The notes under the pieces are model-generated. The model was not told the DNA's origin, ran no database searches, and worked only from the letters and a program-made list of their open reading frames with translations. From the human T2T-CHM13v2.0 reference genome, Homo sapiens: DNA of 64,000 bases. The stretch lies in the NCBI RefSeq assembly GCF_009914755.1, contig NC_060933.1, one strand, 5' to 3'. Each line of letters begins with the position of its first letter. Positions within the stretch are counted from its first letter, which is position 1. The translations under genes and the position numbers were made by a program. Positions 39,601 to 42,250 of this stretch are shown here, piece after piece.

Positions 39601-42250
39601 AGAGGTGTTTATAGTATTCTCTGATGGTAGTTTGTATTTCTGTGGGATCGGTGGTGATATCCCCTTTGTCATTTTTTATTGTTTCTATTTGATTCTTCTC
39701 TCTTTTCTTCTTTATTAGTCTTCCTAGTGGTCTATCAATTTTGTTGATCTTTCCAAAAAACCAGCTCTTGGATTCATTGATTTTTTGAAGGGTTTTTTTG
39801 TGTCTCTATTTCCTTCAGTTCTGCTCTGATCTTAGTTATTTCTTGCCTTCTGCTAGCTTTTGAATGTGTTTGCTCTTGCTTCTCTGGTTCTTTTAATTGT
39901 GATGTTAGGGTGTCAATTTTAGATCTTTCCTGCTTTCTTTTTCGGGCATTTAGTGCTATAAATTTCCCTCTCCACACTGCTTTAAATGTGTCCCAGAGAT
40001 TCTGGTATGTTGTGTGTTTGTTCTCATTGGTTTCAAAGAACATCTTTATTTCTGCCTTCATTTTGTTATGTACCCAGTAGTCATTCAGGAGCAGGTTGTT
40101 CAGTTTCCATGTAGTCGAGCAGTTTTGAGTGAGTTTCTTAATCCTGAGTTCTAGTTTGATTGCACTGTGGTCTGAGAGACAGTTTGTTATAATTTCTGTT
40201 CTTTTACGTTTGCCGAGGAGTGCTTTACTTCCAACTATGTGGTCAATTTTGGAGTAAGTGTGATGTGGTGCTGAGAAGAATATATATTCTATTGATTTGG
40301 GGTGGAGAGTTCTGTAGATGTCTATTAGGTCTGCTTGGTGCAGAGCTGAGTTCAATTCCTGGATATCCTTTTTAACTTTCTGTCTCGTTGATCTGTCTAA
40401 TGTTGACAGTGGTGTGTTAAAGTCTCCCATTGTTATTGTGTGGAAGTCTAAGTCTGTTTGTACGCCTCTAAGGACTTGCTTTATGAATCTGGGTGCTCCT
40501 GTACTGGGTGCATATATATTTAGGATATTTAACCCTTCTTGTTGAATTGATCCCTTTACCATTATGTAATGGCCTTCTTTGTCTCTTTTGATCTTTGTTG
40601 GTTTAAAGTCTGTTTTATCAGAGACTAGGATTCCAACCCCTGCTTTTTTTTTGTTTTCCCTTTGCTTGGCAGACCTTCCTCCATACCTTTATTTTGAGCC
40701 TATGTGTGTCTCTGCACGTGAGCAGGGTCTGCTGAATACAGCACACTGATGGATCTTGACTCTTTATCCAATTTGCCACTCTGTGTCTTTTAATTGGAGG
40801 ATTTAGCCTATTTACATTTAAGGTTAATATTGCTATGTGTGAATTTGATCCTGTCATTATGATGTTAACTGGTTATTTTGCTCATTAGTTGATGCAGTTT
40901 CTTCCTGGCCTTGATGGTCTTTACAATTTGGCATGTTTTTGCAGTGGCTGGTACTGGTTGTTCCTTTCCATGTTTAGTGCTTCCTTCAGGAGCTCTTGTA
41001 AGGCAGGCCTGGTGGTGACAGAATCTCTCAGCATTTGCTTGTCTGTAAAGGATTTTATTTCTCCTTCAGTTATGAAGCTTAGTTTGGCTGGATATGAAAT
41101 TCTGGGTTGAAAATTCTTTTCTTTAAGAATGTTGAATATTGGCCCCCACTCTCTTCTGGCTTGTAGAGTTTCTGCCGAGAGATCCGCTGTTAGTCTGATG
41201 GGCTTCCCTTTGTGAGTAACCCGACCTTTCTCTCTGGCTGCCCTTAATATTTTTTCCTTCATTTCAAGTTTGGTGAATCTTTTCACAGTCACATATTTCT
41301 TGGAGGCTTTGTTCGTTTCTTTTTACTCTTTTTTCTCTAAACTTCTTTTCTCGCTTCATTTCATTCATTTGATCTTCAATCACTGATACCCTTTCTTCCA
41401 GTTGATCGGATTGGCTACTGAAGCTTGTGCATGCGTCATGTAGTTCTCGTGCCATGGTTTTCAGCTCCATCTGGTCATTTAAGGTCTTCTCTACGCTGTT
41501 TATTCTAGTTAGCTATTCGTCTAATCCTTTTTCAAGGTTTTTAGCTTCTTTGCGACGGGTTCGAACATCCTCCTTTAGCTCGGAGAAGTTTGTTATTACC
41601 GATCATCTGAAACCTTCTTCTCTCAACTCGTCAAAGTCATTCTCCATCCAGCTTTGTTCCGTTGCTGGCGAGGCGTTGTGTTCCTTTGGAGGAGAAGAGG
41701 CGCTCTGAGTTTTAGAATTTTCAGCTTTTCTGCTCTGGTTTCTCCCCATCTTTGTGGTTTTATGTACCTTTGGTCTTTGATGGTGGTGACGTACAGATGG
41801 GGTTTTGTGTGGTTGTCCTTTCTGTTTGTTAGTTTTCCTTCTAAGAGTCAGGACCCTCAGCTGCAGGTCTGTTGGAGTTTGCTGGAGGTCCAGTCCAGAC
41901 CCTGTTTGCCTGGGTATCACCAGCAGAGGCTGCAGAACAGCAAATATTGCAGAATGGCAAATGTTGCTGTCTGATCCTTTCTCTGGAAGCTTCGTCTCAG
42001 AGGGGCACCTGGCTGTATGCGGTGTCAGTCAGCCCCTACTGGGAGGTGTCTCCCAGTTAGGCTACGCAGGGGTCAGGGACCCACTTAAGGAGGCAGTCTT
42101 TCCATTCTCAGATCTCAAACTCCATGCTGGGAGAACCACTACTGTCACCAAAGCTCAGTCGGAAATTCAGAAATCACCTGTCTTCTGCGTCGTTCATGCT
42201 GGGAGCTGTAGACTGGAGCTGTTCCTATTCGACCATCTTGGATCCGGACC
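36665..42250 (-). mobile_element. Near-full-length L1PA (approx. PA3-PA6), antisense in intron 1, inactive; spliced 5' UTR (SpIRE)
   Basis: 5' end ccaagatggtcgaataggaacagc on minus strand at ~42245. ORF1 fragments at 40921-41748 and ORF2 EN/RT/C fragments at 36890-40857 in the ORF track. 3' UTR and A-rich tail at ~36665-36690. Multiple frameshifts. Confidence 0.97.
38508..38670. repeat. Perfect 31-bp quasi-palindromic tandem repeat (5 units + 8 nt) inside L1 ORF2
   Basis: Unit TTGATTTTGTATCAAATCAAGATACAAAATC starts at 38508, 38539, 38570, 38601 and 38632, with a partial unit at 38663. Confidence 0.97.

What the first reader, a model, noticed from the sequence alone, without database searches (positions are those of the whole stretch)
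42130..42250. The intronic L1 is a spliced integrated retrotransposed element (SpIRE97/622-type)
Seen on the minus strand: ...gatttctgaatttccgactgag|ctttggtgacagtagtggttctcccagc..., with the junction between 42154 and 42153. Known: the L1PA 5' UTR reads ...ctgag|GTacc at the donor near nt 97/98 and ...tctgacAG|ctttgaagagagcagtggttctcccagc at the acceptor near nt 621/622. The missing ~520 nt is therefore exactly a GT-AG intron, meaning the RNA was spliced before reverse transcription. The element length (~5.6 kb) fits. The class is described (SpIREs) but rare, and easy to mistake for an ordinary deletion.
Basis: partly seen in the sequence, partly recalled or inferred. Interest (0 to 1): 0.72.

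Follow-up and report, generated by a model that had tools for sequence, protein, structure and literature searches.

The report
Spliced LINE-1 copy, later recombined
This dead LINE-1 jumping-gene copy lacks exactly one intron of its promoter region, so it was likely copied from a spliced RNA (a known class), and its two halves match LINE-1 families of different ages, likely joined by later recombination; an uncatalogued but mostly ordinary example.

Summary
The L1 (36657-42250, minus strand) joins its first 97 nt to the downstream 5' UTR at 42154|42153. In 23 unspliced close relatives the missing piece is 471-533 nt; it starts with GT in 20 of 23 and ends with AG in 21 of 23. The same junction recurs at 66 exact sites genome-wide, control 0. 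This is the published SpIRE97/622 junction. The locus is absent from the 116-row list of Larson 2018. All three chr9 paralogs carry it. The 5' UTR, ORF1 and early ORF2 carry early-L1PA5 alleles (2 of 54 young); from about 39680 on they are L1PA4-type (31 of 34 young). It has no target-site duplication, whereas 10 of 10 control L1s do. Likely history: an early-PA5 SpIRE inserted, its 3' half was replaced in place by recombination with an L1PA4, then the region duplicated. No primate ortholog could be checked. Verdict: new member of a known class, with a modest twist.

The parts
42154..42250 (-). L1 5' UTR exon 1 (first 97 nt, up to the splice donor)
   Evidence: aligns to the 5' start of 23 unspliced relatives; start matches that of L017
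42153..42154 (-). SpIRE97/622 splice junction; about 500-511 nt GT-AG intron absent
   Evidence: the same junction at 66 exact genome sites; identical in 3 of 3 paralogs
41750..42153 (-). Rest of the 5' UTR (404 nt), early-L1PA5 type; long enough to include the 129-nt segment lost in L1PA2/PA1 (inferred from length)
   Evidence: 0 of 22 young alleles; groups with Larson's PA5-5, 8% from the PA6 anchor
40921..41749 (-). ORF1, broken by stops and by a 195-nt deletion at 41281; early-L1PA5 type
   Evidence: 2 of 26 young alleles; deletion present in window and L050, absent in L051
39780..40857 (-). 5' part of ORF2 (endonuclease region), old-type alleles, broken
   Evidence: 0 of 6 young alleles; PA4 pair excludes this element at 98% bootstrap
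39546..39779 (-). Inferred crossover interval between the early-PA5 and the PA4 half
   Evidence: last old non-CpG site before the switch at 39779, young sites from 39683/39546; best split at 39683, Fisher p 5e-18
36890..39546 (-). 3' part of ORF2, L1PA4 type, broken
   Evidence: 20 of 23 young alleles in L051, 19 of 22 in the window; groups with PA4 at 100% bootstrap in a five-taxon tree
38508..38671 (.). 31-nt minisatellite inside ORF2, 5.3 identical copies; unit holds an inverted copy of the adjacent L1 sequence
   Evidence: 1, 5 and 11 exact units in the three paralogs, none elsewhere at up to 2 mismatches
36657..36889 (-). 3' UTR and degenerate A-rich tail, early-L1PA4 type; no matching target-site duplication
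   Evidence: 9 of 9 young alleles; nearest anchor PA4-49 at 2.7%; TSD test

Best explanation
This is a broken LINE-1 whose 5' UTR lacks exactly the GT-AG intron that defines SpIRE97/622, so its 5' half was likely copied from a spliced early-L1PA5 RNA, and its 3' half, which carries L1PA4 alleles, was likely swapped in later by homologous recombination in ORF2 at this site. Steps: (1) inferred: an early-L1PA5 transcript was spliced at the known donor and acceptor, reverse-transcribed and inserted antisense in intron 1 of the ancestral CNTNAP3 gene; (2) shown: the element switches from old to L1PA4 alleles at about 39780-39550 and has no target-site duplication; inferred: a same-strand L1PA4 just downstream recombined with it, either as a finished insertion (L1 recombination-associated deletion) or as a nascent cDNA annealing to the old copy, which removed the old 3' end, its duplication and any DNA between; (3) shown: three chr9 copies share junction, mosaic and flanks at 97.7-99% identity, so both events predate the segmental duplications; (4) shown: afterwards a 195-nt ORF1 deletion arose in the ancestor of two copies and a 31-nt unit expanded to 1, 5 and 11 copies. 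The copy is predicted to be inert: both ORFs are broken and the removed intron holds promoter elements (Larson 2018).
For: Gap ends on GT/AG in unspliced relatives. Same junction at many independent loci: 9 of 9 fetched non-paralogous hits are colinear across it; 66 exact and 190 near hits. The junction is the published one. Mosaic: young-allele counts along L051 are 0/22, 2/26, 0/6, 20/23, 9/9; best split 52:2 versus 3:31, p 5e-18. PA5 anchors are intermediate at both ends (PA5-24: 11/23 and 3/8), so the element is off the subfamily ladder. 5' tree: later PA5 and PA4 anchors group to its exclusion at 100%; 3' tree: it groups with PA4-PA2 at 89%. 0 of 20 nearest 5' relatives with at least 5 scored sites have a PA4-type 3' end. 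TSD: best match 10 nt at up to 1 mismatch, within the 7-10 of unrelated tails; 10 of 10 controls reach 12-17.
Against: No pre-insertion or pre-recombination allele was seen: all three genome copies are filled and no other primate genome is held, so steps 1 and 2 are inferred. The diagnostic sites rest on only 2 PA4 and 2 old-type reference elements, and the early-ORF2 segment on 6 non-CpG sites; raw distances there do not separate the groups (4.6-5.8% versus 4.9-5.4%). Three old alleles persist in the PA4 half and two young ones in the old half. The 3' half sits at the base of PA4, close in time to late PA5, so a short-lived mosaic source is not excluded. A 14-nt A-rich stretch at each end matches 10 of 14 by eye in the paralogs and could be a decayed duplication. 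Two of the ten control TSDs are weak (one mostly an A-run, one 12 nt at 1 mismatch). The 2-nt AG at both gap ends would also suit a microhomology deletion at this one locus.
Confidence: 0.7

Rival explanations
1. A plain SpIRE97/622 inserted once from a source element that was already mosaic (old 5' half, L1PA4 3' half), or from an intermediate of the L1PA5-to-PA4 series; its duplication decayed or was lost by a small target-site deletion.
For: The 3' half lies at the base of PA4, near in time to PA5. Larson lists 10 of 116 SpIRE97/622 rows without a TSD. A 10-of-14 A-rich match exists by eye.
Against: 0 of 20 nearest 5' relatives with at least 5 scored sites have a PA4-type 3' end, and PA5 anchors change at both ends together. 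The switch is sharp. Similarly old elements keep 12-17 nt duplications.
Confidence: 0.12
2. The chimera formed during reverse transcription: the L1 reverse transcriptase began on an L1PA4 RNA and switched in ORF2 to a spliced early-PA5 RNA, giving one new insertion.
For: It accounts for the mosaic, the intact 5' start and the tail in one event.
Against: A single new insertion should usually carry a target-site duplication, and none is seen. It needs a rare spliced RNA of an older subfamily in the same particle as a PA4 RNA.
Confidence: 0.08
3. Gene conversion overwrote the 3' 2.9 kb of a resident SpIRE with L1PA4 sequence without deleting flanking DNA.
For: It explains the mosaic, and even the tail is of PA4 pattern.
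Against: Conversion would normally leave the original duplication, which is not found at the end or within 3.2 kb downstream.
Confidence: 0.06
4. The 5' UTR gap is a DNA deletion after insertion, using the 2-nt AG microhomology.
For: The AG is present at both gap ends; this element did suffer a later deletion with short homology, the 195-nt ORF1 loss.
Against: The identical junction occurs at 66 exact sites and matches a donor shown to be used in cells. The ORF1 deletion has no GT-AG ends and differs between paralogs, whereas this gap is in all three.
Confidence: 0.04

Closest known systems
SpIRE97/622 (Larson et al. 2018, PMC5860796; read: abstract, first part of Results, the section on 5' UTR changes, first parts of Methods, Discussion and Supporting information, all of S1 Table, term searches of S1 Data)
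   Same: Same donor after nt 97 and same acceptor; intact 5' start; antisense in an intron, as 32 of their 51 genic cases; subfamily within their PA1-PA6 range.
   Different: Not among the 116 rows (the only chr9 row is in RALGPS1; no CNTNAP3 hit). Intron about 500-511 nt instead of 524. No TSD. 3' half from a younger subfamily. Present in three copies by segmental duplication. Larson marks two rows 'Chimera', but both are 3'-deleted.
L1 recombination-associated deletion (L1RAD; Han et al. 2008, not held; seen only through passages of PMC3543922 and PMC8102501)
   Same: One L1 made of two subfamilies with unmatched ends, as expected after recombination between two L1 copies; 73 human-specific events of 56-64,113 bp are reported in the passage read.
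   Different: This event predates the chr9 duplications, so it is likely older than the human-specific set; the deleted DNA was not seen; one parent is a spliced copy.
Chimeric L1s formed during target-primed reverse transcription by annealing to a resident L1 (Gilbert et al. 2002, 2005; recalled, the paper was not held)
   Same: Older 5' part, younger 3' part with tail, no duplication.
   Different: Cannot be told from recombination between two finished copies without an intermediate primate allele.
RAP1GDS1 SpIRE revived by a host promoter (PMC11838501; passages only)
   Same: Intronic SpIRE97/622.
   Different: That one is sense to its gene with full-length ORFs; this one is antisense with both ORFs broken.

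Membership tests
SpIRE97/622 | 5' UTR nt 1-97 joined to the sequence after the A620G621 acceptor | tested here: met
   97-nt first exon 42250-42154 joined to 42153; colinear with loci that map to Larson rows
SpIRE97/622 | Missing segment begins with GT and ends with AG in unspliced relatives | tested here: met
   GT 20 of 23, AG 21 of 23 (2 misses are register offsets), both 19 of 23
SpIRE97/622 | Belongs to L1PA1-L1PA6 | tested here: met
   5' half groups with Larson's PA5-5 (4.7%) and is 8% from the PA6 row; 3' half at the base of PA4. Labels come from Larson's table, matched to this assembly by approximate offsets and one flank probe
SpIRE97/622 | 3' poly(A) tract (typical hallmark) | tested here: met
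   Degenerate A-rich tail 36690-36657; it likely belongs to the L1PA4 partner
SpIRE97/622 | 6-25 nt target-site duplication (typical hallmark, not required: 10 of Larson's 116 rows have none) | tested here: not met
   Best 6 exact, 10 at 1 mismatch; unrelated tails give 7-10; controls 12-17
SpIRE97/622 | Over 95% identity to Larson's L1.3-based 100-nt probe (their search filter) | not testable with these tools
   L1.3 is not held; nearest other spliced copies are 88-92% identical over the junction region, so it likely fell below the filter
SpIRE97/622 | Reduced promoter activity | not testable with these tools
   Shown for an engineered L1.3 version in Larson 2018
SpIRE97/622 | No ortholog or paralog with the unspliced 5' UTR | tested here: inconclusive
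   3 of 3 paralogs spliced; no non-human primate genome is held
L1-L1 recombination chimera (L1RAD type) | 5' and 3' parts from different L1 subfamilies with one crossover | tested here: met
   52:2 versus 3:31 old:young alleles, p 5e-18 at the best split; discordant trees
L1-L1 recombination chimera (L1RAD type) | Ends lack a shared target-site duplication | tested here: met
L1-L1 recombination chimera (L1RAD type) | An outgroup keeps the parental L1 or L1s and the intervening DNA | not testable with these tools
   No primate genome is held; all three human copies are alike

The most novel reading that the evidence does not exclude
The chimera was made by the L1 machinery itself: an L1PA4 cDNA switched onto, or annealed to, a spliced early-PA5 element, so a 'dead-end' SpIRE served as a recombination partner for the active lineage in the ape germ line. 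If such two-subfamily chimeras are common among the many uncatalogued older SpIREs (190 near-exact junction hits against 116 listed), SpIRE junctions become markers for tracing L1-L1 recombination during retrotransposition.
Probability: 0.15. Interest if true: 0.55.

Novelty: new member of a known kind. Interest (0 to 1): 0.32.

Why it matters
The class and its mechanism are published, so the junction itself adds one locus. Two points go a little further. The published count looks low for older subfamilies: about 34 of 66 exact junction hits have no row in the 2018 table (approximate offsets) and 190 near-exact hits were found against 116 listed. And this copy records an old L1-L1 recombination, dated between L1PA4 activity and the CNTNAP3 duplications, which likely removed part of intron 1 before the gene family expanded. 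Labelling by the 3' end would call it L1PA4 and misdate the splicing event. The three paralogs also show a minisatellite at 1, 5 and 11 units, a marker that tells near-identical CNTNAP3 copies apart. No function is indicated.

Tried and rejected
Idea that this element extends SpIREs to L1PA6/PA7: rejected; it is 8% from the PA6 anchor and groups with a PA5-labelled row. Empty allele among paralogs: none; both flanks occur only at the three filled copies, plus one 44-nt unrelated hit. Displaced duplication from a 3' transduction: no 12-mer at up to 1 mismatch within 3.2 kb downstream; the best exact matches in 11.7 kb were 10-mers about 10 kb away. Spliced copies as one clade (re-mobilised SpIRE): not supported; spliced loci are scattered among unspliced ones in the tree. 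The 195-nt ORF1 gap as a second splice: rejected; no GT at its start and L051 retains the sequence. Ranking nearest relatives by ORF2 or 3' UTR identity did not resolve the subfamily. The first TSD null used a 14-mer two bases off and was replaced. Full-length sequences of more reference elements were not obtained, so only four references span the whole element. Literature searches for this locus (passages) found no description; Han 2008 and Gilbert 2005 were not held. Figures (Larson S1 Fig) and bioRxiv supplements could not be seen and may bear on the claim that the locus is unlisted.

Full report
Observation. The minus strand carries an L1 from 42250 to about 36657 in intron 1 of CNTNAP3P2, antisense to the gene (gene table given with the finding). 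Its first 97 nt are joined at 42154|42153 to sequence that lies much further into the 5' UTR in relatives. I took the 27 nearest non-paralogous loci returned for the post-junction 5' UTR (30 of the 40 listed hits were fetched, 3 of them the chr9 copies). Twenty-three contain both flanking pieces with an insert of 471-533 nt (median 507); one is itself spliced; three did not align upstream of the acceptor. The insert starts with GT in 20 of 23 and ends with AG in 21 of 23; the two AG misses are 2-nt offsets of an ungapped match. Because AG precedes both the donor and the downstream exon, the gap has three equivalent placements, one of them GT..AG.

Splicing or deletion. One locus with a 2-nt microhomology would be ambiguous; recurrence is not. 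A probe across the junction returned other loci colinear through it (9 of 9 non-paralogous loci fetched, of 37 listed). An exact 21-nt pattern occurs 66 times against 0 for the control and a 24-nt pattern with up to 2 mismatches 190 times against 1 (only 100 were listed, and only five unlisted-by-Larson loci were inspected). Larson et al. 2018 (PMC5860796) define this junction as SpIRE97/622, list 116 copies in L1PA1-PA6, and report reduced promoter activity. Their S1 Table has one chr9 row of this class, in RALGPS1, and no CNTNAP3 entry; S1 Data has no other chr9 record of this class. Their filter was over 95% identity to an L1.3-based probe; this copy is 88-92% identical to its nearest spliced kin, which likely explains the miss. 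By approximate coordinate offsets judged by eye, about 34 of the 66 exact hits, including the three chr9 copies, have no row in their table.

Paralogs. Both flanks occur at three places only, all on chr9 and all filled: the window, 43.67 Mb (L050) and 39.29 Mb (L051). That the other two are CNTNAP3-family copies is recalled, not shown by a call. The L1 is 99.0% identical to L050 and 97.7% to L051, the flanks 98.3-99.1%. All three have the same junction. A 195-nt ORF1 deletion is in the window and L050 but not L051, has no GT at its start, and serves as an internal example of a later DNA deletion.

The unexpected part: a mosaic. The 5' UTR and ORF1 grouped with an old cluster, but the 3' end was nearest to an element that Larson labels PA4 (2.7% at non-CpG sites). 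I scored non-CpG sites where two PA4 anchors agree and differ from two unspliced old-cluster elements. Along L051 the young allele appears at 0 of 22 sites in the 5' UTR, 2 of 26 in ORF1, 0 of 6 in early ORF2, 20 of 23 in later ORF2 and 9 of 9 at the 3' end; the window copy gives the same pattern. The best split, at window 39683, is 52:2 against 3:31 (Fisher p 5e-18, best of about 90 cuts). An intermediate of the subfamily series would be mixed at both ends, as PA5-24 is (11 of 23 and 3 of 8). Trees agree: in the 5' part the later PA5 and PA4 anchors group without this element (100%), in the 3' end it groups with PA4-PA2 (89%); in a five-taxon tree the later ORF2 and 3' end join PA4 (100%), while in early ORF2 the PA4 pair excludes it (98%). 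The PA6 row of Larson, located by a flank probe, is 8% away, so the 5' half is early L1PA5, not older. Against: only four references span the element, early ORF2 rests on six sites and its raw distances do not discriminate, and subfamily labels are borrowed from Larson's table through approximate coordinates.

One-off or lineage. Of the 27 nearest 5' relatives, 3' data were obtained for 25; two are the references, one gave no mapped sites, two gave only two sites (both old). Of the 20 with at least five scored sites, none has a PA4-type end (at most 2 of 6 young). So no amplified mosaic family is visible among the nearest kin.

Target-site duplication. Ten control elements held at both ends all show 12-17 nt at up to one mismatch (two of them weak). 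The window and both paralogs give 6 exact or 10 at one mismatch, within the 7-10 that the same flank gives against unrelated tails; no displaced copy lies within 3.2 kb downstream. A 14-nt A-rich stretch matches 10 of 14 by eye in the paralogs; I treat it as chance but cannot exclude decay.

Mechanism. Shown: the splice-type junction, the allele switch, the missing duplication, three copies. Inferred: an early-PA5 RNA was spliced and inserted here; later an L1PA4 in the same orientation downstream recombined with it in ORF2, either as a finished copy (the L1RAD route, seen through passages of PMC3543922 and PMC8102501) or as a nascent cDNA (recalled from Gilbert et al.; not held), removing the old 3' end and its duplication; the region then duplicated. 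I put the spliced origin at about 0.93 and the whole history at about 0.7. Both ORFs are broken (longest stop-free stretch 304 codons), so the copy is predicted to be inert.

A side feature. Inside ORF2 sits a 31-nt array, 5.3 identical copies in the window, 11.3 in L050, one unit in L051, and nowhere else in the genome at up to 2 mismatches. The unit contains an inverted copy of the neighbouring L1 sequence and folds strongly as single-stranded DNA (z -8.65), which suggests birth by a template switch followed by slippage (inferred).

Novelty. The class is known; the locus is not in the one catalogue I could read, and searches for it found nothing relevant. The library lacks most subscription papers, and figures and bioRxiv supplements were not visible. 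L1-L1 chimeras are known too. The combination is a tidy natural-history case, not a new kind of system. Interest 0.32.

Noticed in passing
window 38508-38671; L050 6347-6696; G000:C9:39291503-39291534: A 31-nt minisatellite with an internal inverted repeat inside ORF2: 1, 5.3 and 11.3 identical copies in the three paralogs, found nowhere else at up to 2 mismatches. It looks like the staged birth of a tandem array from a template switch; variation between people untested.
   Followed up: partly
genome-wide: SpIRE97/622 junction hits exceed the published list: 190 near-exact hits against 116; about 34 of 66 exact older-type hits lack a row. Five such loci (L005, L006, L009, L010, L012) were checked and are colinear across the junction.
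   Followed up: partly
window 41281: 195-nt deletion in ORF1 with a 3-nt shared end, present in the window and L050 but not L051; it orders the duplications (window with L050, L051 outside).
   Followed up: yes
L011 (G000:C6:109568196): The locus matching Larson's row 55, labelled PA2-3, has an older-type 5' half (8 of 22 and 7 of 25 young alleles) and groups with PA5-24; its label may be wrong or it may be another mosaic.
   Followed up: no
window 7955-8715, 20606-21202, 2587-3352: Other, older L1 fragments in the window (67-88% identical to this element); none adjoins it.
   Followed up: no
window 36280-36650 and 42255-42430: By recall only, the 3' flank resembles an old LTR fragment and the 5' flank a CR1/L3 remnant; no repeat library was available. 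If right, the two flanks belong to different repeats, which would fit loss of DNA between them.
   Followed up: no
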